A DNA stretch of 63,985 nt, the filler included, from Reclinomonas americana ATCC 50394 (lineage: Eukaryota), in assembly GCA_048213135.1 (NCBI GenBank). It is 6 parts of 3 records of this genome, joined end to end, with 100 filler letters (N's around TTAATTAATTAA, not from the genome) between each part and the next. Parts side by side here need not be neighbours in the genome. Positions count along the whole stretch, not along the records: positions 56,514 to 60,787 come from PS015119.1; 5 more parts are not named here. One strand, given 5' to 3'. The stretch's first letter is position 1, and the number at the start of each line of letters is the position of its first letter. This document shows positions 17,219-62,599 of this stretch, in pieces. The notes under the pieces were generated by a model. That model saw only the letters and a program-made list of their open reading frames with translations. It did no database searches and was not told where the DNA came from. The position numbers and the translations under genes were made by a program.

Positions 17219-19145
17219 TCATCGAGCACGAGCGGGACTGCTCACGACATCTGCTGCGTGCAGGTACGACGAAGGCGACTGGCCGATGGAGCCGACATGG
17301 GAACGGAGGATTTCCATGAGGTGCGCATTGCGCTTCCGTTCCACGTCGAGCTGCGTCTCGGCATCCGCCTTCTCCCGCTCCAGTCGCGCAACGCGAGACT
17401 CGAGCAGGGTGACCCTCTCGCTGATGCACTGCGTTTGCATCGTCGCCATGAGCGCCTCCAAGGCCGCCACGCGCTTCTCCACGGCACCACTGGCCGCCGG
17501 CGAAAACAGCGAGGAGGACGCCATTTGGTCTCCAGCACGCGGACTCCTGCCGCTGTTGCTGCCACTGCCCGCACCGGATGGCGACAGCCGCGGCAGTGAG
17601 GCACGGCGAGTCAGCTTGTGTGGTGAGAGCAATCCGGCTCCGCTGTCGCCGCCCTCGGCAAACGACACTTGAATGGACCGACGGCGAGTCGACTGAGCGC
17701 CCGGCGTCATGAACCCAGGCGTGCGCGGCGACAGAGTGCCCACCGACCACGTGTCCTCCGAGTCGGCCTCCACATCGATCGACAGCTGCGGGCGACCGTC
17801 GCCCTCTCCATCGCCACCATCCTCTTCGCCGTCCTCGTGTCGGTTGGCGTACGCCTCAATGATGCGCTGCGCCGTCGTCACCTGCGTGTCGGTGATCGTG
17901 GCATACAGTTCCGCGTCCTCAAACGGCGCCAGCTCGTGCAGCGTCACCGATGCCGGGTCAACCACCAGATCGGTGCTGCGCGTCAGATCGAACTGCGGTC
18001 GGCGCGGCGGGTTGTCGTTCTCGTTCCACGCATAGTCAAACGAGTGCAACAGACGGGCCTCCAGAGTGCGCGCATTCGCCAGTGTGGCGGTGCACGGCAC
18101 CGAGCCAGTGACACAGTAGCGCACCCAGATCTCGAGTCCGCTCTCCAGTGCGTCGCACATCAGGCGCCTGTGCATGGGGGGAGGGGAAGAGGTGAGTGTT
18201 GGCGACCTCAGAAGATCTCTTCTCTTGCGCACATGTCGCACCTGAGCTTGTCGTTGCTGCAGGCATTGTAGTACAGCGACGAGACGCGGTAGCCGAGGAC
18301 CGAGCAGGCGCGCACATAACACACGCCCCAGCTGTCGGTCTCCACATCGTGCACGGCGAGCTCGACCACACCCGGCTGCTCCGGCGCCTTGATGCCCTGA
18401 TTGTCGACCACGGGGCGGCGGCGATTCGACATGCGATCAAAGCGCAGACCGCGCTCACGCAGCGACGGGCCATCCTCGGACGACAGCAGGCGCTGCCAGT
18501 TGGCAAACTGCCAGCCGCTCTGATCCAGCACCGCATCGGCGTACTTTTCGCGCAAGTACCGCCGACGCAGACGCAAGCCGCCCGCCGTCTTGAAGAACGT
18601 CAGGCCGCAGTCGCCCTCCAGATGCACGCCCAGCGCACCAGCATACGTGCCAATGACAATGCCCCAGCGGGCATCGGAGAGCTGCTGCACGCGGTCGCCC
18701 GGCTTCACTTGCCACTCGGCCAGGCACTTGTCGGCCTCCGTGTGCATCTCATACGCCTGGCCCGTCTTGCTGCAATAGGTGCACTTGGAGGCGCCTTCCG
18801 TGGGCACAATACGCACTCGACGCAGGCGGTAAAATTCCTCGTGAGCGCGCACACCGCGGTAGCATCGCGCGCCGCCTTCGCCGTCAAACTGAAAGTACAA
18901 CTCGCCATCGTCGACTCCGACGCCCACAATGGTGGCCAGACGCGAGATGTTCTCCTCAGTGAGGTGCTCCTGCGCGGGTGGCACTGTGGTGAGTGACTGA
19001 GAGAGGGAGAGAGAGTGGGGGAATGGGGAGACGCAACAATCACGTTGACGACTTGTCCGCGTCGGAAAAAGTCGCCAAAGCGCAGGCACGCGGCATCCGA
19101 TGTGCGCACTGGGATGATCTGTCCTTCAGTAGTGCAGTACTGCAT
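17219..19145 (-). CDS. Protein with two SH3/KOW-like repeats, an EFFECTOR OF TRANSCRIPTION-type GIY-YIG domain and a C-terminal coiled coil
   Basis: FANWQRLL..PGVVELAV..CYV..YRV..ALESGLEIWVRY..ARTLEARLLHSFDYAWNENDNPPRR matches the layout of the plant ET GIY-YIG domain. Short GT-AG introns. Confidence 0.65.
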
Positions 19146-31000: not shown

Positions 31001-34000
31001 CGAATCCAGGGACCAGCGGGTGACTCGGTGGACACCTCCAGCACGTACGACAGCTGCTGCGCTGAGCCGACCTCGACGTCGGCCTCGGAGATCTTGATGG
31101 AAGCCGAATGTGGGTTGCGAGAAGCCACGGAGACCACCGGTCGCTCGGGCAGCGTCACTACCAAAGCGCAAGTGTGAGAACCTCCCCCATCCCACCTCAC
31201 GAAACGGAGAAATCAATCAACTCACCGACAGAGAGCACATCGCTCGGCGCACTGTCGAGGAACACGGCACGCAGCCACACGGCCTGCCTTGGCTTGAGGC
31301 CGTCGACAACCACGGCGGCATCGTGGGAGCGGCGCACAAGCCACGGGCCGTTGGCAGACACGGTTGAATATTCCACGACAAACGGTTCTGCGACGGCGGC
31401 AGCGTAGGCCGGCTGCTCACTCGTCTCCACATGCACGGCGACTGAACGCGGACCGCCTCGCTGCGCCACGAGGCGCGGTGGCGCAAGAGGAGCTGCCTCT
31501 GCAGGGTGGTAAGTGGCACACCATCAGTGGCACGACAGCACATGGTGTCGGCATCGGAGAGCAGGAACTCACCGAGAACCAGCACGTCGCTCGGCTCACT
31601 CAGCCCGGCGGCATTGCGTGCACGTGCACGCACCAGCAGCTTCTTGCCGACGTGGAGGTTGTCAACATTGAACGCGGCCGGAGCGGCGTCATTGAGTACG
31701 GACCACGGGCCACGTGCGTCTCCACTCTCACACGACTCGACGACAAATGTGGCCTCGGCCGGCGAGCCACGTGACTCGCGCCCGTGCTGCATGTGCACAC
31801 ACACTGCTGACGATGACAAGCGTTCCGACGACGCGGTGGGCGCACTCGGCACCTCGTCCATGGCTAATCACCACACGCACACACATGAGTATGAGAACGG
31901 CAACGGTGCACGAGCGCACGCGGTGGACGCAACTGACAACGATTGGCTCGCTGTACTCGCCCTCACTGCCGCCAGCATCGACACGCACTCGTACGCGCAC
32001 CGGTTGACCAGCCGGCAGGTTCTCCAGATCGAATTCGTCACTGTCGTGCCCGCTCTCAGTCCATCCGCCAGCGGCCGGCGACGCCAAGCCCCACGCTGCT
32101 GTGTACTTAATGCTCTCGTCGGGGGAACTCTATTTGTGCGAGGGTGTGAATGAGAGAGGAAGGAGAAGCAGAGCGAGGCAAGGGACACGGACACACGCAC
32201 CCCAGACGAGGAGGACACAGCAGCGGTGGCGCGCACTCGCACAGTAGTGGCGTTAATGGCGTGTACGGACACGGTCGGTGCAGCAGAGCGACGGACCGGC
32301 AACGCTGCACGACGCAAAAAATTAAAATTGAGGAATGCGTACCTCCTCCATACACCGCTCAGGAGCCAACCACTCACCGATTTCGTGCACAGGACCGAAT
32401 TCGCCGTGACCGGCCGCATTGACGGCAGCGGCGCGATAATAGAGCACGCGACCATGTGAGCCATCAGCAATGTCCACATCAAAGTTGCGTGCTGCGCTGC
32501 TGAGCTCCGACCACGGACCACTGGCTGAGGAGCCATGCTGAACGATGAATTGCACGGGGGCGGAGAATGAGGCTTCGGGATCAAGAGCGCGTGGTGCTTG
32601 CAAGTGGATCAGCACGGCATTGCCACCAGGTGCCAACTCGGCGGTGGCTTCTGGAGCCGGCGGAGGCGAGTCAACCGTCACTGTCGCGGTTGGAGTGGTG
32701 AGCGAGGGACTCCCTTGGAGCAGACAAAAGGGAACACACGTGCCTGTTGCGACTGGCTCCGACCACTCGCTGATACCAGCGTCGTTCTTCACCGCTGCGC
32801 GCACTGTAAGGCGCTTGCCGGGTGCCAAACCACCGACAGCCACCTCGGGCGTCTGACTGTTCTCCGTGATGGGCGAGCGGCCCTCCTCGGTCACTGTGAC
32901 GACGTACGAGACGCTGGGATTGGCAACGGCGCTGGCGACAACCACGCGAACAGTGGTGGCCGACACGGCGCTCACGCGCACAGTTGGCACTGGCGGTAGC
33001 AGCACTGCGAAAAGAGGTGACAGTGAGGAGAGTCGTAACCGAAAGAGAGAACCCGACAGGTGACAGACGCAGGAGACCTTGCGAGCGCGGCTCACTCTGT
33101 GCGCCGTCGCCCAGCGCAGCGCGTACGTGGACCACGGAGCCCGGCGCCAGGTGCTCCACCGTGACCTCAGCGCCACCCGCCGGTGGGCACTCAGTGTACG
33201 GACCTCCCGCTCCCTGGGTGGAGTACCACACACGGACGGGCACGGCGGCCGCAGCTGCAGCGGCTGCTGCAGCGCCGGCTCCCTGCACACGCACGGTCAC
33301 CGACGTGGACGTCACGCGGCCAACGTCCACACGAGGCGGTGTGCGATCTTGAGTCACTGGAGACGAGAGGTAGCGTGAGACAACCATACTGTCGTCGGTC
33401 AGCACCTGCGTGATTACGAACCCACAGTGACAATCTGCGCCTCTCCCACGCCAGCAACATTGCGCGCCGCCACTCGGAAGTAGCTTGGTCGACCGGGTAC
33501 CAGATCGCGCACTGCTACTGGTGACCGTGCATGCTCAAACACAGTTACCCACGGTCCCTCGGCGGAGCGATCTGAGCGTGCCACAAAGTAGTCGCCCACC
33601 AGCGGCGAGATGGTAGCTACAGGCGCCGGTGGTTCAATGACCAGCTGCGCCGTCGTCAAGTCCGCTGAGGAAACAGTGACGCGCGGTGCGGCTGGCGGCT
33701 TGTCACGCACTGCTCAGCAATTCACAGAGAACGGCAGATGCGGTTGAGCATATTCGTCACACACTCTGTCTCTGTGGGCGGTGGTGGAGACATACCGAGT
33801 GACACCGACTCTGACCAGTCGCCGACACCACCGCGGTTCTCCGCTGCCACCATCACATGCACAGTCTTGAACGCCTCGATGTCGGAGACCACGATCGAGT
33901 CGGAGGCGTGAGTGGACTGTGTCCATTGTGGTGAACCAGCGGGTGGTGGTGGCGACGTGGTGCACACGGCGACACGGTAGCGAATATTCTACGTGATGTC

Positions 34001-42699: not shown

Positions 42700-44280
42700 G
42701 GAACGCCATGATGCTTAATCGTCACTTCAAGCACGTCAATGCAATCTTCATGTACGTGTCTATCTCTCCCTTTCTTCCGTCCCTTCTCTCACTCCGTCTC
42801 CTCTCACATCCTCTCTCTGTGCGCATGTGTCTGTCGCGTACCTTGAAGCTTTATCGACGCAGTAGGCACATCAATGCAAATCATTATGCTGTCTCTCTCT
42901 CCCCACTCCCCACCTTTCCCTCTCCCTCCTCCTTTCCCTTCTCTGTCATTGCGCTCACCATGCACGCTTGCAGGGATACTCGAGTGTTGCCGCGCCCGGA
43001 TTCATGATCTCAATGGTGCTGTCTGCGCCTGCTCCCTTGCAACCGCGCATCTTGTCGTGACCTGTTTCTTGTTTGCAGGCGGAGATGACGAGCGTGACGT
43101 GGGTGGACGACACGACGGTGCGCGTGCAGAGTGGAGCGCGCTGGGCCGATGTGTACGAGGCGTTCCGTGCGCATGGCGGACTGTGGGTGGTCACTGGTGG
43201 CTTGTGTCCGTCGGTGGGCGTCGCTGGCTTCACCATGGGCGGCGGTGTGGGTCCGGTGGCGCGGCAGTATGGCCTAGCCATCGACAATGTGCTGGCGTTC
43301 ACGGTGGTCACGGCGATTGGCTCGGAGATTATTCAGGTCGACGAGAAGAACAACAGTGACTTATTCTGGGCGCTGCGCGGTGGTGGCGGAGGCAACTTTG
43401 GTGCGGTGGTCGACATTACCTTCCGCGTGCACCGTGGACCGGAGCAGTACACGTGGGGCGAGGTGCGTGAGAGGAGAGAGAGAGAGAGAGAGATAAGAAG
43501 AAAAGCAAATTGCTCATCCCTTCTCCGCAGGTGTGCTACCGCAACACGACCGACGATATGCGCGCGGCGCTGCTGCCGCTGTCCAAGCACGCCGCTGCGC
43601 TGCCGGGCATGATGAATGTGGATGTGGTGCTGGAGCGCGACTCGGGCGCCTGTCTGTGGATTGTGTACCAGGGCGCAAAGGAGGAGGCCGAGGCGCTGCT
43701 GAAGCCGATTCTCGATGCGGCGCCAACGCCGGCCTCCAGCTCCTTCCAGGCATTCATTTGCTTCTGGGAACTCATTCAGGCGTACGCTGCGGCGCATGGG
43801 TACGGCGAATTCAGTGACGAACCGTACCACCTGCGCAATGTGCTGGTGGCAGAGTTTTCGCCGGAGCTGGTGGATTTGCTGGTGGAGTCGACCGTGGCCG
43901 CGCCCGACGACTGCGACATGCACATGATCCAGTTTGGCGGCGTCATTAGCAAGGTCGACAAGCACCACACCGCCTTTTACCACCGCAACGCCGAGTACAT
44001 GGTGTATGCGTCGTGCGGTTTCACTGACGAGGCCTCGGAGACGGCTGTCGTCGCCTATCTCGACCTGTGGTACGCTCGCGCACGGCAGCTCTCTGTCGGC
44101 GCCTACGTCAACTTTATCGACCGCAACGTGGTCGGCTGGGAAGACATGTTCTACGGTGGTAATCTGGACCGCCTGCGTCGCATCAAGGAGTTCTGGAACC
44201 CGCCGGGCCGCGGTCCCATGCGGTTCCCGCAGGAGATTGGCGCCGACTTGCCACAGCAGCATCTGGTTGGCCATGTTTGA
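42700..44280 (+). CDS. FAD-linked oxidoreductase, berberine-bridge-enzyme/VAO-PCMH family (5' end uncertain)
   Basis: VRVQSGARWADVY..GLCPSVGVAGFTMGGG.GP..RQYGLAIDNV..DLFWALRGGGGGNFGAV, and a BBE C-terminus GAYVNFID..FYGGNLDRLRRIKEFWNP. Confidence 0.9.
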
Positions 44281-44365: not shown

Positions 44366-47300
44366 TTATCTCCTTCCCAGTGAACTGGCGGAGCGCGACG
44401 AGGCAGAGAGTGGACGCACGCCGCTGCCTGATGCCTCGCCATAGCCACCACCATCGTCGTCGCCATCCTCCAACTCCTCAATGTAATCGGTGTGTTCCGG
44501 TCCCTCCCAGTCCAGGAACTGCAGGACACCACAATTCAGCGATCACCAAGCCTCAACGTCCATCAAGAAACACACACACACCTCCTCGTATTCGGTGGCG
44601 TTGAAGTCGATATTGTTCATCTTGAGCACCTTGACCAGCTCGCCGATCTTTTCGCGTTGCACGGCCTTGGCAGCCTGCAGCGCACGCACCGCCTTGTCCT
44701 CGAATTGCTTTTCCACCGAGTTCTGAATCTTCTTGGCCTGCACACACGCACGCGCACACACATGAATTTCAGCGGCGTCGCGGAAATACGAGCGAGACAA
44801 GGCAATGACGCACCGATGCGCCGTAGCTGAGAGTCGACTTGGTCTCACTGACCGAGTCCGACGCCGGCGTCACATTGACAAACATGAGCGTCTTGGCCGT
44901 GCCTCCAATAGTGTCCTTCAGAAGCATGGTCAGCGCGTTCGAGCGGTACGAGAACTGCTTGACGGCACGTGTGCCCGAGGCGTGAGCGATCAGATTCTGC
45001 AACGCCGACAGACTCTGGTTGATGGTCGTGGCCTCCTTGACGGCGTGCTTGTCCTTCAGTTGCGTGCGTGCCAGGCGCTCCGAGCCGGCCAGATCGACCA
45101 GCGTCAGCTTGCCGAGGGTCGTCTTCTTGTTCTGTGTGCATTCAAAAGACCGCAAGCAGTCAGAATGAGCTTCCTCTCTTCTTCGTCGCTCCACACGCAC
45201 CTTGAGGTTCGTGACATGCACGTTGATGACGAACAACAGGTGCGAGCGTGACGACGTGTCATTCATGGCCGTCGTGCGCTCGTGACGTGATGCATTGCCC
45301 ATCTGGAACAGCTCGAGCATCTCCTCGGGTGATGACACCGACACCTCCACCAGTCCACGCACATTGCCGTCGGCGGTGATGGTGAGTTTCGGTGGCGGGT
45401 TCTCCTGCTGGAACTTGTCGTACAGCTTCTCCAAGTACAGCTCGACCATGGTGCATCGAATCTCAACCGTCGACTCGCGAATGTTGCGCGTCTTGTGGAA
45501 GATCTCGCGCATGGCGCGCGGAGCAATGCCCTCCAGATCCTCAATGCCCGGCGCACCCGTCATGGTGTGCGTCTTGCCGGAACCAGTCTGGCCGTATGCA
45601 AAGATGCACACGTTGTAGCCATCGATGGACGACTGCACCAGCGGCTGCACGTGCTTGAACACCTCTGCCTGAGAGGCCGTCTCTGAGAACACTCGCGAGA
45701 ACACATAGTCGATGAACGGCTTGCGGTTCGCCTCGTCGGGCACCATCAGTCGGCACGTGTACGCATCAGGGTAGCGAGCAATCTGCAACGGTTGTCAGTG
45801 GCGCGCGCATCAGCTGACAAGCGTGACGGCGATGGCGGCGACTCACGTGCTCGACACCGGGAGTCGTCAACTCGCGTGTGTTGAGCGGACGCATGCGGGC
45901 AAACACGCGGATGCCGCCCTTCATGTCCTCGATTTCGTTGTGCAACTTCTTGTTTTGTGCGCCGACCACCACAAAGTCCTCCTCCAGATGCCGCACCTCA
46001 GCCTCGAGCTCGTCCTTCTTGGACTTGACCTCATCCAGCTCCTGTGGCGAGTGGTCAGTTCATGCAGTTGGCGGCCCAAGTGTGCGCAGTGACTGCAGCA
46101 CCTTGGCCATCTCCTCCACTTGGCCCATGTTGTCGCGGAAGTCGCGCAGTGCCCTCTTTGCCTTCTTGAACTTGCGTTGGGTCATCTCGAACTGCTGCTT
46201 CGTGTCCTCCAGCTCCTTCTTCAGCGACTCGGTCTCCTCGGCCGTCAACTCGCCTGGCAGAATGATGCCTGCGCAATCACACAACATTTCAGTATACAGC
46301 TGCGGTCCTCTGCGAATCGATCGTGCGGACGCACCCGATCGGAGCATGGCCACTTGCTCTTGCAGGCGAAGCTTGTCGTCGCACAGTGTGGCAATCGTCG
46401 TCTCGGCATCGTGGTCTCCGTCAGCAGAGGCTGCACCGAGATGGCATCAGCATTCTCGCCAACAACGGCGTACATGGGGGATACACAGGCTGCATACCGA
46501 GATGCGCTTGCTTCTCCCGCTCGGCTAGCTGCCGTCGCAACTCGCGATTCTCGTGGAACAGAGTCAATGTCTGCTCCGAGACGGCGCCAGGTGCTACAGG
46601 GAGCAGCGTGAGCAGCCAGCTCGCATAACGACACAAAGAAGACCACAGCACTCTCTACCTGAAGCCACAACCGGCCCGCTTCCGCCAATTCCTGGCGGGG
46701 GTGGCGGGCGGGCGTGCTTCTCGGCCACCGACCTCGGCGGTGCCATGGAGCTGCGCACATTGGTCTTTTGCATGACAGCTGCACATCATAACAATGAGCG
46801 GCGACTCTAAAGCACCACGAAGGTGCGTGGCACGACGCAACCCCTCTGGATCTGCTCAGGCGAGCTGCCGGCGGCCACCATCTGCTTCACAGTGGTCTCC
46901 AGCTCGGTGACAGTGGCCAGCAGCCGCTGGTTCTGCTGAATGAGCTCTTGAGCTGCGGGAGCGGTCGCGTTGTGTGAGTCATCTGTCACCGACACGCATA
47001 ATGCAAACACCCACACGCAACTGCCTTCGTCGGTGGTGAAAATCGCCGACGGATTGTGCATGAGTGCGCGATCGTTCAGTGCACGGCGCAAGTCGTCATT
47101 CTCCAACTGCAGCCGGTCCTCCTCCAACTTGTGGGCATCGCACGCTGTCAAGTGCACACGACAAGGTGAGATATTCTAAAACGTGCAAGTCTGGCGGCGT
47201 CACTGCCTCTCTCTCACCGGCTTGCACCACATCGAGCTCCTCGCGCAGACGACCCACTTCGGTCTGCAGCGCCGACTTTTGCACCGTCAAATTGGTCATG

Positions 47301-57794: not shown

Positions 57795-58477
57795 TTACAC
57801 CTGCTCAACCTCCACAAGCACGCCACCGCAGTCCTTGGGATGGAGGAACACGACTGGCTTGCCATGTGCACCAATCTTCGGCTCCGCATTAAGCGCACGG
57901 ATGCCCTTGGCCTTGAACTGCGCCAGCGCTGCATGGATGTTTTCAACCTGCAGAAAGAACCCATATTGAGTGCGCAACACTGATGCAGCAATAGAGGGAG
58001 GGAGAGAGGGAGAGAGGTACCTCCAGGCACACGTGGTGAATGCCACCCGAGGGGTTGTTCTTGATAAAGTTGGCAATCGGCGAGTTTTCTCCGAGTGGAT
58101 GCAACAGCTCAATCTTGGTGTTGGGCAGATTCACAAACACCACCGTCACTCCGTGCTCCGGCAGTGCCTATCGGTTTTCCACTCGCATGAGCATATGCAC
58201 ATGAGGAGGGTCGGTCACACAGGTGACCACGCACCTCGGGCGCGCTGACTTTCGCACCCATGACGTCGCGGTAAAAGGTGGTCGCCTTCTCCAACTCAGG
58301 CACCGCAATCGCCACATGATTCAGGCGGCCGATGCCCGTGAATGCTGCGGCCGTCGACTGATGAACAACACAGGGGAGTCAGTGCATGTCTGTGTGCGTG
58401 TGTGTGTGTGTGTGCATGGGAGAGCGAGTGTGCGTAACAAAAGATGCGCTGCTGCCAAAAGAGCGCACAGTCTGCAT
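57795..58477 (-). CDS. MCEE: Methylmalonyl-CoA epimerase (VOC superfamily)
   Basis: GRLNHVAIAVPELEKA..ALPEHGVTVVFVNLPNTKIELLHPLGENSPIA..GGIHHVCLE/VENI..KIGAHGKPVVFLHPKDCGGVLVEVEQV*. Confidence 0.95.
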
Positions 58478-58648
58478 GACAAGATGCGCGCGCGTGTGTG
58501 CGTACGAGTGAGCGAGTGGTGGAGAGAAGAAGCACGATGGAGAGACACACCAGTCGACCAAGAGCCATCATTGTCACGCGTGGAAGGGATGATGACGGAA
58601 GAAAGTGATCCCGCAGGACGCTGCGATCGTTACGTACTCGTCAGTGAC
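58478..58648. promoter_or_regulatory. Probable bidirectional promoter region between MCEE and the CAP-Gly-MsrB gene
   Basis: Head-to-head predicted ATGs are ~170 bp apart. No specific motif identified. Confidence 0.35.
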
Positions 58649-59668
58649 ATGTCGAGACGATCGTCTGCGGCCGGCAGTCGACGATCACAAGTCGCTACTG
58701 CTTCGGCTGCTGCTGAAGATGAACCGCCATCATCATCGTCGTCTTCATCGTCGTCTGCTGGTGAGGTGGCGATCGGTCAGGCGTGCTTGTTTGAGGGCAT
58801 GCCGGCGATCGTGCGCTTCGTGGGGCAGTGCCACTTCAAGCCGGGCGAGTTTGTGGGCCTGGAGCTCAGTGAACCACGTTGCGTGCGTGCATCATCGATG
58901 ATCGACACTGCTGGTGGCAGTGGTGGTGAGTTGTCTGCTGCTGCAGGTGGCCTGAACGATGGATCGGTCGGTGGTGTGCGGTACTTTGCGTGTGCGCCAC
59001 AGCACGGCCTCTTTTGTCGACGCAAGGTGCTGACGCTGGGCAAGGTGAGCGAGCGATTGCGATGGTCTCTCTCGCCAGAGGTCGATCGGTGGTGATGTGT
59101 ATGTGTGTGCGCAGGATGTGCGCAGCCGGACGGCCATCCGGCGGCTCGAGTTGTTCAAGAACCACTGGGCAGCCGGTGTGTATCGATGCCGATCGTGCGG
59201 ACAGGTGCTGTTCCAGTCCGATGCCAAGTTCGAGGTGCCGACATCGCCGTGGCCGTCATTTCGACAGGCTGCGAGCGACGAGTCGGTGAGCATGTAGGCA
59301 GGATGAGGAGTAGCATGGGATGGCGTCGTGTGTCGCTCATGGTGTGTGTGTGTGTGTACATGATGCATGCAGGTGAAAATCGTGGCTCGTGACAAGGGCG
59401 CGCCAGAGGTACTGTGTAGCCGATGCAACACTCTCGTTGGCCACCAGTTCGAGGAGAAGACGGGTGCGGTTGATATCATTAACATCATTAACTTCTATTA
59501 TCTTCACTGGTTTACGTTCTCACCAGGGGGGTGTTTTCTCTATCCGGACGCACAGGCACTCGATTCTGAGTGGAGTCATGCGCCTTGGAGTTCGCCGATG
59601 ACACCGGAAAGGTGTTGGAGGTGGACGACAAGGCGCCGGCAGCCTCCGACTCGCCACCCGCGTCGTAG
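58649..59668 (+). CDS. MSRB1: CAP-Gly domain fused to a selenocysteine-containing methionine-R-sulfoxide reductase (MsrB1/SelR type)
   Basis: Exons 58649-58877, 58947-59044, 59115-59285, 59373-59463 and 59556-59668, all GT-AG and in frame. CAP-Gly: VRFVGQCHFKPGEFVGLELSEPRGLNDGSVGGVRYF..HGLF. MsrB: FKNHWAAGVYRCRSCGQVLFQSDAKF..SPWPSF..EVLCSRCNTLVGHQF..GTRF[TGA 59567-59569]VESCALEF. Stop TAG at 59666-59668. Confidence 0.88.
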
Positions 59669-59711
59669 ACGACGGGCGTGTCGCCACTGCTGATCCCTCG
59701 GCGCACTTCGG

Positions 59712-59779
59712 ATGATGTTGACCGTGTTACGGAAAAAACTAATTGTTGGTGCATACCGCACCGCCGGCGGTCGACGGAT
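59712..59779 (+). promoter_or_regulatory. SECIS-like element in the 3' UTR
   Basis: ATGA at 59712-59715; stem TGTTGACCG (59716-24) pairs with CGGTCGACG (59768-76); GA at 59777-78; unpaired A-run at 59733-38; apical mini-stem GGTGC/GCACC. Confidence 0.7.
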
Positions 59780-59932
59780 GATATTATTGTTGTGGTTGTT
59801 GTTGCTGGATCCTTGTTGTTGGTGGCGTTGGTGGGAGAGTGAACGGAGTTGCACTGTACAGAACCACGCGTACATATTAGACCACACGATACACACAACA
59901 GCTCGCCAGTGTGTTTGTCAAACTCACCTCCT

Positions 59933-60411
59933 TCAACGAATGTAGTCGTTGTCGTAGTGCATGCGCGCCGACATTGGCTGCACCACAGATGCCGAACTGG
60001 CCGGCATCGCATTCACATATCGCGGTGTCCCGCTATCGCGAGGCGACTGCTGCAACGCCACTCGCTGCATCCGCAGCAGCAACGACGGCAGCGTCGTGGT
60101 CGTCGACACGCAAGTGGAGTCGGCGGCTCTGAGGCGGCGCGACGGCGAGAAGCGACTCGTTCGTTTCTCGCCCACCTTGCCGGTCACCGCATGATGTTGC
60201 CGCCGCTTGCCCGCCTCACCATCGTCGTCCACAAACACCGCCCGCCCACTGTCGACCGTGTCAAACGAAAAGCTCTCCCCATCATCGCCGAGCGTCATCC
60301 TCTTGCGATGTGAAGTCACGTGCGACCGTTTATCGCTATAGTCGCAGCTGTCCATCTCCTCAAGAGCGCTATCGAGGCCATGATCGCCACCGTCAAAATC
60401 ACAATCACCCT

Positions 60412-60443
<32 letters not shown>

Positions 60444-60787
60444 GCATCACAGCGCACGTGTCCGGGATTGTCGGGTTCGTTGTCGCCGAGTGTCACCACA
60501 AGCGAAGGCGGCACGCTCTCCAGTTCGATCTCCAACGGAGGTGCTGCGGCTGAGGCGATCGACAGGCCACCGACAAAAGGCTCGGCTCTTGGCGACAGTG
60601 GCAAGGAGAGTGGCGCAGCTGTACCGTCGTCCTCTTGCTCCACATCCTTGTACACAAACAGCAACTCCTCGTCCAGAGCACTGAGACGATGCAGATCGAG
60701 TGGGGGAATCGAGATGCTGGAACGCCGTGACACCGAGCAACCAATCCCCAACTGCTGCATGCCGTCGTCGTCTTCGTCCAGCTGACC
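59933..60787 (-). CDS. 3' fragment of an acidic low-complexity protein
   Basis: Open frame of at least 275 aa running from the contig edge to a stop at 59933. No family recognised. Confidence 0.5.
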
Positions 60788-61147
60788 NNNNNNNNNNNNN
60801 NNNNNNNNNNNNNNNNNNNNNNNNNNNNNNNTTAATTAATTAANNNNNNNNNNNNNNNNNNNNNNNNNNNNNNNNNNNNNNNNNNNNTGGCACACATAAC
60901 CTTGGTTGTCATTCGCGTTAGGGAGGCGTGTGTGTGCGAGAGAGAGAGAGCGTGTGTATGCGTGTGTAGTGTGCGCTATGCAGTCTGATTCATCCGACGA
61001 AACATCGTCTCGGTTGCAATCTCGCTGCATTGTGATGTGTCTGCTTTCCGGCTTCCTCCACTTCGCAGGGCAACACCAGCGTGCACATGAAGCAGTGTGG
61101 CAGTCAACATGACAGCAACGAGCGGCTGTACATTCACTCGGTTCACT

Positions 61148-61627
61148 CTACCATGCAGGCGCACGGCGTTCAATCACCTCTGCATCCTCCAACACAAAGC
61201 ACCGCAGCACGACGTCGATGAGAATCCAGTCACGGTCGTCGTCGGCAAGCAGCTCGTTGATGGCCAGCACGGCCAGTCTTGCGACCGCAAGCTCTTGTCG
61301 GGCCAGCACACGCGGCGTGGACCACACTCGGATCGAATTATCCTCACTCCCACTCACAATGTGCTGGCCATCGGGAGTGACAGCGACAGACCGCACCCAG
61401 CTTGTGTGCCCATCAAACTGTCGCGCCTGTTGGCCACTCGCCAGCGACCACACACGCACCGTCTTGTCAGTACTTCCACTCACGACGTACTGGCCATCGA
61501 AAGTGAGGGTGACAGAAAGCACAGCACCGCCGTGTCCTTCCATCCGCCGCACCTCCTCCCCACTCGCCAATGACCACACACGCACTGTCCTGTCCCCGCT
61601 CCCACTCACGATGCGATGACCATCGGG
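61148..61627 (-). CDS. WD40 repeat protein, 3' fragment
   Basis: Repeats PDG..IVSGS.D.TVRVWSLASG..GH...V.SV, followed by a helical tail and stop. Confidence 0.85.
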   Translation of the reverse strand, partial: PDGHRIVSGSGDRTVRVWSLASGEEVRRMEGHGGAVLSVTLTFDGQYVVSGSTDKTVRVWSLASGQQARQFDGHTSWVRSVAVTPDGQHIVSGSEDNSIRVWSTPRVLARQELAVARLAVLAINELLADDDRDWILIDVVLRCFVLEDAEVIERRAPAW

Positions 61628-61840
61628 NNNNNNNNNNNNNNNNNNNNNNNNNNNNNNNNNNNNNNNNNNNNNNNNNNNNNNNNNNNNNNNNNNNNNNNNN
61701 NNNNNNNNNNNNNNNNNNNNNNNNNNNNNNNNNNNNNNNNNNNNNNNNNNNNNNNNNNNNNNNNNNNNNNNNNNNNNNNNNNNNNNNNNNNNNNNNNNNN
61801 NNNNNNNNNNNNNNNNNNNNNNNNNNNNNNNNNNNNNNNN

Positions 61841-62170
61841 GAGTGGTCTCTGGCGAGTGGAAAACGAGTGAGACAGTTTGAGGAAGTATACGGAGGAGTG
61901 CTTGCTGTTGCTGTTGCTCCCGATTCGCAGCACGTCGTGAGCGGAAGCCAAGACGGGTCTGTGCGTGTGTGGTCGCTGGCAAGTGGCGAGGAGATGAGCC
62001 AGTGGGAAGGAAGCACGAGTGCAGTGCTGTCGGTTGCTGTCACTCCCGACAGCCAGCACATCGTGAGCGGGGGTGAGGAGAACACAGTGCGGATGTGGTC
62101 TCTCGTGAGTGGTGAGGAAGTGCGTCGGTTCGAGGGGCACACTGATAGAGTATGGTCTGTCGCCGTCTCT
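61841..62170 (+). CDS. WD40 repeat fragment (same repeat family as 61148-61627, opposite orientation)
   Basis: WSLASG..VLAVAVAPDSQHVVSGSQDGSVRVWSLASGEE..FEGHTDRVWSVAVS. Confidence 0.8.
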
Positions 62171-62599
62171 NNNNNNNNNNNNNNNNNNNNNNNNNNNNNN
62201 NNNNNNNNNNNNNNTTAATTAATTAANNNNNNNNNNNNNNNNNNNNNNNNNNNNNNNNNNNNNNNNNNNNCGAGGGTGTTTGAGTGGAGGGGGGAGAAGG
62301 AGAATGGGAGGATGATGGAGAAGGAGGGAGTGCAGGGGATGAGCTTGCGTGTGACTGTGTTGGAGGTGTGGCGAAAAGGGGGGATGAGAAAAGGCATGAG
62401 AAAGGAGAAGCGGAGATGCAGGAAGGGGCGGAGAATGAGAGAGAGTGAGAAACGAGTTTGTTTGTGTGATTGTGATGGTGATTTGAGGTGGAGAGGGGGA
62501 GAGAAGGAGAAGGGGAGATGCAGGGAGGAGGCGCATGAAGGGATGAACTGCTGAGTTCTCCAATGTACAGCGTTCATTATCACGGTGTGTTTATTCACT

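What the first reader, a model, noticed from the sequence alone, without database searches (positions are those of the whole stretch)
58649..59668. Hidden selenoprotein: CAP-Gly microtubule-binding domain fused to a Sec-containing MsrB
Seen: five GT-AG exons join in frame to give CAP-Gly, then an MsrB domain with both zinc CxxC motifs (CRSC, CSRC). An in-frame TGA (59567-59569) falls exactly at the catalytic position, G-T-R-F-U-V-E-S-C-A-L-E-F. The frame continues MsrB-like past the TGA to TAG 59668, and a SECIS-like hairpin follows. Established: mammalian MsrB1 reads RFUIFSSSLKF and SSPWPAF; Cys-type MsrBs carry HLGHVF and CINS. This protein has SPWPSF, LVGHQF and UVES, so it lacks the His/Val/Asn set of Cys-type enzymes, as Sec-type enzymes do. 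CAP-Gly domains bind EEY/F tails of tubulin and EB proteins, and MsrB1 reverses MICAL-type Met oxidation of actin. Inference: a microtubule- or flagellum-targeted selenium-dependent Met-sulfoxide repair or redox-switch enzyme. I do not know of this domain fusion in described selenoproteomes. Standard annotation would truncate or mis-splice it, as the ORF track does.
Basis: partly seen in the sequence, partly recalled or inferred. Interest (0 to 1): 0.93.

Follow-up and report, generated by a model that had tools for sequence, protein, structure and literature searches.

The report
CAP-Gly fused to selenocysteine MsrB
A small five-exon gene of an unidentified protist joins a microtubule-tail-binding CAP-Gly domain to a methionine-sulfoxide reductase whose catalytic residue is written as TGA, most likely selenocysteine, a domain combination I found nowhere else.

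Summary
Window 58649-59668 (+) carries five GT-AG exons. They join in frame to give a 233-residue protein, with CAP-Gly (Pfam E 1.8e-17) followed by MsrB/SelR (exon 3 alone E 1.7e-8). TGA 59567-69 sits in the column of the catalytic Cys of homologues. Homology continues past it: +11.8 bits with X at the TGA, reached by 0 of 500 shuffles. Third-position GC after the TGA is 0.84.

One correction: CAP-Gly structures place the donor of intron 1 at 58878, not 58869.

A SECIS-like hairpin starts 44 nt after the TAG. It has an AUGAU/GGAU core and a 10-bp helix II, followed by an A-run. It is the only site in both strands of the 64-kb window with that core and at least 10 of 12 helix II pairs. Rfam reported no SECIS, and the spacing from core to A-run looks long.

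Not testable here: transcripts, the organism and its Sec machinery. No whole genome is held.

No CAP-Gly+MsrB fusion turned up in 112 MsrB relatives, six metagenome loci or two literature searches.

Verdict: probably a real selenoprotein with a new architecture (confidence 0.65). The microtubule-targeting role is inference only, and the tail-binding motif reads GLNDG rather than GKNDG.

The parts
58649..58877 (+). Exon 1: start codon, Ser/Ala-rich N-terminus and the first half of CAP-Gly. In-frame ATGs also lie upstream at 58589 and 58592.
   Evidence: The exon end is set by contiguous alignment to CLIP4 and CLIPR-59 structures.
58878..58946 (+). Intron 1 (69 nt, GT..AG, weak donor GTTGCG). 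In-frame alternatives are donors at 58869 or 58887, or retention of the intron.
58947..59044 (+). Exon 2: second half of CAP-Gly, including the GLNDG motif.
59045..59114 (+). Intron 2 (70 nt, GTGAGC..CAG, contains a (GT)n run). Read through, it reaches a stop at 59096-98.
59115..59285 (+). Exon 3: N-terminal half of MsrB, with the first CxxC (CRSC) and SPWPSF. It has no in-frame Met.
   Evidence: SelR E 1.7e-8; MsrB1 3mao, E 1e-8.
59286..59372 (+). Intron 3 (87 nt, GTGAGC..CAG, with a (GT)n run).
   Evidence: In-frame stop at 59295-97.
59373..59463 (+). Exon 4: second CxxC (CSRC) and LVGHQF.
   Evidence: Adds 20.4 bits to my MsrB profile.
59464..59555 (+). Intron 4 (92 nt, GC 0.43, GTGCGG..CAG). 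It contains a competing acceptor AG at 59525-26. The exon 4 frame stays open through this intron.
59556..59668 (+). Exon 5: T-R-F, TGA 59567-69 (putative Sec, residue 201 of 233), VESCALEF, an acidic tail and TAG 59666-68.
59699..59792 (+). SECIS-like element. Helix I pairs 59699-703 with 59788-92, and 59708-10 with 59779-81. The core is AUGA 59712-15 facing GA 59777-78. Helix II pairs 59716-25 with 59767-76, extended by CGG/CCG. The A-run is 59733-38. The apical stem pairs 59748-52 with 59758-62.
   Evidence: Not reported by Rfam.

Best explanation
A single nuclear gene of an intron-rich, GC-rich protist encodes a 233-residue protein. It has a low-complexity N-terminus, one CAP-Gly domain and a short MsrB1-type methionine-R-sulfoxide reductase. 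The reductase keeps both zinc CxxC pairs, and its catalytic residue is selenocysteine. That residue is encoded by UGA 59567-69 and recoded through a form-2-like SECIS hairpin 145 nt downstream in the 3' UTR.

Shown: the domain content, the in-phase exon structure, the position of the TGA, the coding signal after it, and the presence and rarity of the hairpin.

Inferred:
- UGA is read as Sec.
- Sec attacks Met-R-sulfoxide, and the selenenic acid is resolved by a nearby Cys. The Cys four residues after Sec is the obvious candidate, because the usual resolving Cys before WP is absent.
- CAP-Gly docks the enzyme on acidic-aromatic tails of tubulin or EB-type proteins, so that it repairs or switches Met oxidation on the microtubule cytoskeleton.
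For: 1. Domains. CAP_GLY scores 63.4 bits and SelR 34.8 bits, both above Pfam cut-offs.
2. Fusion. Exon 2 ends and exon 3 starts in phase 0. Exons 3 and 4 contain no Met, and the three ATGs just upstream (59095, 59101, 59116) are out of frame.
3. MsrB profile. I built it from 25 of the 112 retrieved relatives, chosen by a pattern for complete Cys-type proteins under 220 aa. Scores were: exon 3 alone 64.2 bits, plus exon 4 84.6, up to the TGA 85.6, through the TGA with X 97.4, and with C 104.8. Of 500 shuffles of the post-TGA peptide, 0 reach 97.4 (maximum 93.2). Exons 4 and 5 played no part in retrieving the relatives.
4. Catalytic column. In the alignment the TGA falls where Cys forms have the catalytic Cys. 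Database entries P0012, P0015, P0017 and P0060 stop after R-F at that point.
5. Coding signal. GC3 after the TGA is 0.84 in this frame, against 0.62-0.77 in exons 1-4. Intron 4 has GC 0.43.
6. Solved relatives. The best are MsrB1 (3mao 1e-8, 2kv1 2e-7), ahead of MsrB3 and MsrB2. The first Atlas hit is 'MsrB1a'.
7. SECIS core. AUGAU/GGAU fits the published UGAN/KGAW core (PMC3753652, passages). A U.G sits on top of the G.A tandem, followed by a G-C (Pu-Py) pair, as reported for SBP2 binding (PMC1874613, passages).
8. SECIS rarity. With the core plus at least 10 of 12 helix II pairs, this is 1 of 1 such sites among 433 ATGA sites on both strands of the window. Hairpins with at least 8, 9 or 10 contiguous pairs arise in 9, 3 and 1 of 5000 shuffled 3' regions.
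Against: - Rfam reported no SECIS family at E<=10 in two permissive scans. This is weak evidence, because the E-value is multiplied over 4227 families, and PMC3753652 says non-metazoan SECIS elements are the hardest to predict.
- The A-run begins 17 nt after the core. As I recall, classical patterns allow about 10-13 nt. This is recalled and not checked, because the supplement that holds the filter values is closed.
- Helix I is weak and rich in G.U pairs. The MFE of the 101-nt stretch is no better than shuffles (z = -0.2).
- My hairpin thresholds were set after I had seen the candidate. At looser settings the chance expectation rises to 0.04 (KGAW core, 8 of 12 pairs) or 0.175 (any GA).
- No tRNA-Sec or other tRNA is in the window, and no genome is held, so the Sec machinery is unknown.
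- Cys-type relatives also lack the His/Val/Asn set.
- An acceptor at 59526 with a better pyrimidine tract competes with 59555.
Confidence: 0.65

Rival explanations
1. The enzyme is really a Cys-type MsrB. The TGA is a one-base assembly error, a strain polymorphism or a very recent nonsense mutation of TGC or TGT.
For: One substitution would be enough. Cys relatives with similar active-site surroundings exist (P0101, P0111). Rfam reports no SECIS. The assembly is a draft with 3314 N in the window.
Against: The only hairpin in 128 kb with a SECIS-type core and a long helix II lies exactly in this 3' UTR. Nothing else in the gene is damaged. The frame after the TGA keeps the highest GC3 in the gene.
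Confidence: 0.13
2. TGA is a genuine stop. The product is CAP-Gly plus a catalytically dead zinc-ribbon MsrB remnant ending in T-R-F, and the downstream similarity is a relic.
For: Standard decoding. Sec machinery has not been shown.
Against: The post-TGA peptide adds 11.8 bits (0 of 500 shuffles reach this), and GC3 there is 0.84. tblastn alignments to six bacterial-type MsrB loci run across the TGA to residues 100-103 of the MsrB part. The SECIS-like hairpin is also present.
Confidence: 0.07
3. The gene model is wrong in part. Intron 4 may be spliced 59463/59527 or retained, giving a C-terminus without the catalytic motif. Alternatively the CAP-Gly exons form a separate short protein by retaining intron 2.
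For: The exon 4 frame stays open through intron 4 to 59693. Acceptor 59526 has the stronger pyrimidine tract. No transcript data could be obtained.
Against: These models score 83.7 and 83.0 bits against 104.8 for the proposed model. MsrB exons 3-4 have no start codon of their own. A second in-frame route (donor 59446, acceptor 59527) also keeps T-R-F-U and scores 98.2.
Confidence: 0.1

Closest known systems
Mammalian MsrB1 (SelR/SelX, SELENOR), solved as 3mao and 2kv1
   Same: It is the best solved relative of exon 3. Shared features are the short N-terminal form starting near F-x-N-H, the S-P-W-P motif in place of the resolving Cys-Gly-Trp-Pro, two zinc CxxC pairs, the catalytic position written as TGA after R-F, and a SECIS expected in the 3' UTR.
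   Different: This gene has a CAP-Gly domain in front. As I recall, MsrB1 has a resolving Cys near its N-terminus; the MsrB part here has none. The linker between G-H-x-F and R-F is shorter. Sec is followed by V-E-S-C. The tail is acidic. The apical part of the SECIS is non-canonical.
Cys-type MsrB (MsrB2, MsrB3, bacterial MsrB; Pfam SelR PF01641)
   Same: Fold family, zinc site and W-P-S-F motif.
   Different: In the relatives aligned, Cys types read H-L-G-H-V-F and R-Y-C-I-N-S. This gene has L-V-G-H-Q-F and R-F-U-V-E-S.
Short protist Cys-MsrBs such as P0111 (Guillardia theta) and P0101 (MMETSP transcript)
   Same: They start similarly and also lack the His/Val/Asn set.
   Different: They carry Cys at the catalytic site, have no CAP-Gly, and contain a longer insertion before the catalytic motif.
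CAP-Gly proteins (CLIP4, CLIPR-59, CLIP-170/Restin, TBCB, p150Glued)
   Same: One canonical CAP-Gly domain. The best PDB hits score E 2e-12 to 1e-9.
   Different: The motif reads GLNDG rather than GKNDG or GKHDG. The domain is joined to a redox enzyme instead of coiled coils or a tubulin-chaperone module.
Reported selenoprotein domain fusions in algae (SELENOM-pVHL, SELENOM-ShKT, GST-MSRA; PMC7539508, passages read)
   Same: A selenoprotein family gains an extra domain in a protist.
   Different: The partner here is a cytoskeleton-binding domain and the family is MsrB. This pairing is not among the fusions named in the passages I read.
The MICAL / SelR (MsrB) actin Met-oxidation switch
   Same: An MsrB1-type enzyme acts on a cytoskeletal polymer. 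I recall this; PMC5772675 was seen only in a search listing.
   Different: The docking domain here points to microtubule or EB tails, not actin. No oxidase partner is known.

Membership tests
MsrB / SelR (PF01641) | Significant match to the family profile | tested here: met
   Exon 3 scores 34.8 bits against a cut-off of 24.9. The spliced MsrB part scores 104.8 bits on my own profile of 25 relatives.
MsrB / SelR (PF01641) | Two CxxC pairs of the structural zinc site | tested here: met
   CRSC and CSRC align with the CxxC columns of the relatives.
MsrB / SelR (PF01641) | Catalytic Cys or Sec in the R-[FY]-C/U motif | tested here: met
   TGA 59567-69 lies in that column. Whether it is decoded is a separate question.
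MsrB / SelR (PF01641) | Met-R-sulfoxide reductase activity | not testable with these tools
   Needs an enzyme assay.
Eukaryotic selenoprotein | In-frame UGA aligned with Cys of homologues, with conservation on both sides | tested here: met
   (+11.8 bits after the TGA; 0 of 500 shuffles reach this).
Eukaryotic selenoprotein | [quoted passage not shown] | tested here: inconclusive
   The core AUGAU/GGAU, a 10-bp helix II, an A-run and an apical stem are present, and such a site is rare. Rfam reports no SECIS family, and the core-to-A spacing is long.
Eukaryotic selenoprotein | Organism has tRNA-Sec, SBP2, eEFSec, PSTK, SepSecS and SPS2 | not testable with these tools
   No genome is held. There are 0 tRNA genes in the window. 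The organism was not identified.
Eukaryotic selenoprotein | Selenium in the protein | not testable with these tools
   Needs 75Se labelling or mass spectrometry.
MsrB1 subtype | Closer to MsrB1 than to MsrB2 or MsrB3; S-P-W-P motif | tested here: met
MsrB1 subtype | Resolving Cys near the N-terminus of the MsrB domain (recalled feature of mammalian MsrB1) | tested here: not met
   There is no Cys in the first 24 residues of exon 3. A Cys lies four residues after the Sec instead.
CAP-Gly (PF01302) | Significant match to the family profile | tested here: met
   63.4 bits against a cut-off of 26.5. 28 PDB CAP-Gly chains match at E<=0.01.
CAP-Gly (PF01302) | GKNDG motif whose K and N serve EEY/F binding | tested here: not met
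   The motif reads GLNDG. The role of K and N is taken from PMC9062740 (passages read).
CAP-Gly (PF01302) | Binding to tubulin or EB tails | not testable with these tools
   Needs a binding or localisation assay.

The most novel reading that the evidence does not exclude
A selenoenzyme physically docked on microtubule or EB C-terminal tails that reverses Met-R-sulfoxide on tubulin or on microtubule-associated proteins. It would be a microtubule counterpart of the MICAL/SelR switch on actin, found in a protist lineage so isolated that its kinesin motor is at most 46% identical to anything in a 5.8-billion-protein collection.
Probability: 0.2. Interest if true: 0.85.

Novelty: new variant of a known kind. 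Interest (0 to 1): 0.62.

Why it matters
Sec-containing MsrB was first thought specific to animals (PMC2375036, one passage read). It was later reported in some algae, where most MsrBs are Cys forms (PMC7539508, passages read).

If real, this gene would matter in three ways:
- It would extend the selenoprotein form to another protist.
- It would show a previously undescribed way of aiming a Met-sulfoxide reductase at a cellular structure.
- It would give a testable handle on whether reversible Met oxidation regulates microtubules as it does actin.

It is also a practical example of a gene that ORF-based or standard annotation will truncate, because the exon 4 frame stays open through intron 4 and the TGA reads as a stop.

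Tried and rejected
- **Whole genome:** none is held, so no search for Sec machinery was possible.
- **Sequencing runs:** no RNA holder was listed. Splice junctions and the TGA could not be checked on reads, and read laying was not used.
- **Rfam:** no SECIS family in 59400-60400 or 59660-59940 at E<=10.
- **Word-index protein search with exon 3, longer proteins:** 1 hit among 10 candidates, a plain MsrB.
- **Word-index protein search with the CAP-Gly exons, near lengths:** 0 of 219 candidates.
- **Exhaustive phmmer with exon 3:** 111 hits, best E 1.5e-8, none at high identity and none identical to the query exon. Pfam on all 112 retrieved proteins gave SelR in 111. CAP_GLY was not among the 25 families shown out of 26.
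- **Metagenome scan:** 6 loci, all with uninterrupted MsrB and no CAP-Gly by tblastn at E<=1.
- **Atlas:** CAP-Gly-only clusters and SelR-only clusters.
- **Organism identification through the kinesin motor exon:** failed. The best identities were 36-46% across unrelated eukaryotes.
- **Earlier findings of this scan:** nothing.
- **Stop-codon and ORF-length statistics, to test whether TGA is a general sense codon:** uninformative, because ORF ends may be exon ends. As an inference only, the 341-aa kinesin exon and the 356-aa WD40 exon match their Pfam domains without any in-frame TGA.
- **Spliced protein:** it could not be sent to the large databases or to structure prediction, because those tools take only contiguous window sequence. 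No fold and no full-length orthologue search were done.
- **Supplements:** SECISearch3 filter values and the algal selenoprotein family pages were not visible.
- **Literature:** two searches for CAP-Gly with MsrB, selenoprotein or methionine sulfoxide reductase found 2 and 5 papers, none about a fusion.

Full report
**What is in the sequence**

Reading 58300-60100 and joining the pieces by coordinate gives one open frame of 702 nt, which is 233 codons plus the stop. It starts at ATG 58649 and ends at TAG 59666-68.

| Part | Coordinates | Length |
|---|---|---|
| Exon 1 | 58649-58877 | 229 nt |
| Exon 2 | 58947-59044 | 98 nt |
| Exon 3 | 59115-59285 | 171 nt |
| Exon 4 | 59373-59463 | 91 nt |
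| Exon 5 | 59556-59668 | 113 nt |
| Introns 1-4 | between the exons | 69, 70, 87, 92 nt |

All four introns are GT..AG and all four acceptors read CAG|G. Introns 2 and 3 interrupt their exon's frame with a stop. Intron 1 and the exon 4 frame through intron 4 stay open. That open frame is why an ORF listing shows misleading pieces such as 59364..59693.

**Domains**

Pfam finds CAP_GLY in the first 132 codons (E 1.8e-17, 63.4 bits, cut-off 26.5). The match comes in two stretches, which already points to an interruption. Pfam finds SelR in exon 3 alone (E 1.7e-8, 34.8 bits, cut-off 24.9). Exon 4 alone is sub-threshold (13.6 bits). Exon 5 alone gives nothing.

Against solved structures, exon 3 is closest to human and mouse MsrB1 (3mao E 1e-8, 2kv1 E 2e-7), ahead of MsrB3, bacterial MsrB and MsrB2. 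The Atlas agrees: its first hit is a chordate 'MsrB1a' cluster, and all 30 hits carry SelR only.

**A correction to intron 1**

The two alignments printed for the CAP-Gly search (CLIP4 2z0w, CLIPR-59 1whh) align query residues up to 77 and from 101 onward to adjacent residues of the chain (49/50 and 64/65). Homology therefore removes exactly residues 78-100. This corresponds to the GT..AG intron 58878-58946 and gives the canonical spacing around the GLNDG motif.

A donor at 58869 would delete three conserved residues, a donor at 58887 would add three, and retention would add 23. All of these are in frame, so only transcripts can decide. The donor that homology supports (GTTGCG) is the weakest of the four.

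**Is it one gene?**

Exons 3 and 4 contain no methionine. The three ATGs just upstream of exon 3 (59095, 59101, 59116) are in another frame. Exon 2 ends and exon 3 begins in phase 0. MsrB can therefore be translated only as a continuation of the CAP-Gly exons. This is an argument from the sequence, not from transcripts.

**The TGA**

In an alignment with 29 retrieved relatives, TGA 59567-69 falls in the column of the catalytic Cys. Four database entries (P0012, P0015, P0017, P0060) stop exactly after R-F at this column. That is what truncated Sec forms look like.

I built a profile from 25 of the 112 retrieved proteins. They were selected by a pattern for complete Cys-type C-termini and a length under 220 aa. 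I then scored alternative gene models:

| Model | Score (bits) |
|---|---|
| Exon 3 alone | 64.2 |
| Exons 3+4 | 84.6 |
| Up to the TGA | 85.6 |
| Through the TGA, X at the codon | 97.4 |
| Through the TGA, C at the codon | 104.8 |

None of 500 shuffles of the post-TGA peptide reaches 97.4 (maximum 93.2, median 84.9). Exon 3's own score is inflated, because the relatives were retrieved with exon 3. The increments from exons 4 and 5 are independent of that.

Third-position GC after the TGA is 0.84, the highest in the gene. tblastn alignments to six uninterrupted MsrB genes from metagenomes also run across the TGA. The frame is therefore under coding constraint beyond the TGA.

**Intron 4 is the weakest link**

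A second AG at 59525-26 has the better pyrimidine tract (for the scores below).

| Splice model | Score (bits) | Catalytic motif |
|---|---|---|
| Donor 59463, acceptor 59556 (proposed) | 104.8 | Kept |
| Donor 59446, acceptor 59527 (weak donor) | 98.2 | Kept, but the conserved G-H-x-F is lost |
| Donor 59463, acceptor 59527 | 83.7 | Lost |
| Intron 4 retained | 83.0 | Lost |

**SECIS**

Rfam reported no SECIS family at E<=10, either in 1 kb or in 281 nt. This is weak evidence, because the E-value covers 4227 families. The SECISearch3 paper also states that non-metazoan SECIS elements are the hardest to predict and that some lineages have their own peculiarities (PMC3753652, passages read).

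A direct scan finds AUGA at 59712-15, 44 nt after the stop and 145 nt after the TGA. Ten contiguous pairs (59716-25 with 59767-76) follow, closed by GA 59777-78 and then U. The core AUGAU/GGAU fits the published UGAN/KGAW consensus (PMC3753652). The pair above the G.A tandem is U.G, and the next is G-C (purine on the 5' strand). This matches what Clery et al. describe for SBP2 binding (PMC1874613, passages read).

The MFE fold of 59696-59796 adds these elements:
- a G.U-rich helix I;
- an internal loop;
- a CGG/CCG extension of helix II after a 4-nt bulge;
- an unpaired A-run (59733-38);
- a 5-bp apical stem.

This is a form-2-like layout.

With the KGAW core and at least 10 of 12 helix II pairs, this is the only site among 433 ATGA sites on both strands of the window. 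Chance expectation in the 264-nt 3' region depends on the threshold:

| Core rule | Helix II pairs required | Expected by chance |
|---|---|---|
| KGAW | 10 of 12 | 0.002 |
| KGAW | 9 of 12 | 0.025 |
| KGAW | 8 of 12 | 0.041 |
| Any GA | 8 to 10 of 12 | 0.175 to 0.017 |

Of 5000 shuffled 3' regions, 9, 3 and 1 contain a hairpin with at least 8, 9 or 10 contiguous pairs.

Caveats:
- I chose the thresholds after seeing the candidate.
- The overall MFE is no better than shuffles (z = -0.2).
- Helix I is weak.
- The A-run starts 17 nt after the core, longer than the 10-13 nt I recall from classical patterns. I could not check this, because the supplement is closed.

**What could not be tested**

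No genome is held. The window has no tRNA gene.

The organism could not be placed. Its kinesin-14-type motor exon is only 36-46% identical to the best of 7489 significant matches, and these come from plants, diplonemids, ciliates, stramenopiles and animals alike. Presence of the Sec machinery is therefore unknown. It is the main reason confidence is not higher.

The protein does lack the His, Val and Asn that typical Cys-type MsrBs in my alignment carry (H-L-G-H-V-F, C-I-N-S). However, several Cys-containing short MsrBs lack them too, including P0111 from Guillardia theta and P0101. The pattern fits a Sec enzyme but does not diagnose one.

The attribution of these residues to Cys-type catalysis (Kim and Gladyshev 2005) is recalled, not read here.

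**Likely mechanism**

Shown: the domain content and the catalytic position.

Inferred:
- Sec201 attacks Met-R-sulfoxide.
- The usual resolving Cys before W-P is absent (the motif reads T-S-P-W-P), and there is no N-terminal Cys as I recall for MsrB1. Cys205, four residues after Sec, is therefore the nearest candidate to form the selenenylsulfide.
- CAP-Gly would dock the enzyme on acidic-aromatic C-terminal tails.

A caution applies to the docking step. The motif reads GLNDG, and the K and N of GKNDG are the residues that published mutagenesis links to microtubule tracking and EEY/F binding (PMC9062740, passages read). Tail binding may therefore be weakened or re-specified.

**Novelty**

No CAP-Gly domain occurs in any of the 112 MsrB relatives retrieved. 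Pfam finds SelR in 111 of them, and CAP_GLY is not among the 25 families shown out of 26. It is also absent from the six metagenome loci and from the Atlas neighbours.

Two full-text searches found no paper that links CAP-Gly to MsrB as a fusion. The algal selenoproteome survey names SELENOM-pVHL, SELENOM-ShKT and GST-MSRA as its novel fusions (PMC7539508, passages read; its database pages not seen).

These searches are limited. The exhaustive search used only the 57 residues of exon 3, and the spliced protein could not be submitted to the large databases.

**Verdict**

This is a real gene, most probably a selenoprotein, with a new domain architecture: a new variant of a known kind. Confidence that it is a CAP-Gly-MsrB fusion with the TGA at the catalytic site is about 0.85. 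Confidence that the TGA is decoded as Sec through the hairpin is about 0.65 overall. The microtubule-directed function is an attractive inference with no test behind it yet.

Noticed in passing
window 44772-45794 (-): An uninterrupted 341-aa exon encodes a kinesin motor (Pfam E 5e-86) with the Microtub_bd domain, typical of C-terminal-motor (kinesin-14) proteins. The best database identities are only 36-46%, so the organism has no close relative in the collection.
   Followed up: partly
window 17222-18436 (-): A 405-aa ORF with a GIY-YIG domain match (PF19239, E 8.5e-6). It may be part of a mobile element such as a Penelope-like retroelement.
   Followed up: no
window 58112-58378 (-): A glyoxalase/VOC-type exon (Pfam E 7.9e-7) without a start codon. 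It belongs to a divergently oriented neighbour whose first exon must lie within about 270 nt of the CAP-Gly-MsrB start.
   Followed up: no
window 59933-60835 (-): A convergent 300-aa ORF, rich in Asp, Ser and Ala, with no Pfam match. It ends about 265 nt after the TAG of the finding, so the two 3' UTRs must share or abut this short spacer. It runs into an N gap at its 5' end.
   Followed up: no
window 61151-62218 (-), 43471-44277 (+), 32325-33296 (-): Other recognisable coding pieces: WD40 repeats (E 6.5e-31), the C-terminus of a berberine-bridge FAD oxidase (E 1.7e-7) and a fibronectin type III domain (E 6.9e-6).
   Followed up: no
window 58390-58415, 59095-59110, 59343-59358: (GT)n microsatellites lie upstream of the gene and inside introns 2 and 3. 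The window also holds 3314 N, so it comes from a draft assembly.
   Followed up: no
proteins P0012, P0013, P0015, P0017, P0060, P0090: These database MsrB entries end exactly at R-F (or W-R-H) just before the catalytic column. They are probably Sec forms truncated by annotation. P0013 keeps a Cys-type H-L-G-H-V-F, and P0015 (from a metagenome) has a C-K-T-L-I-G-H motif close to the one in this gene.
   Followed up: partly
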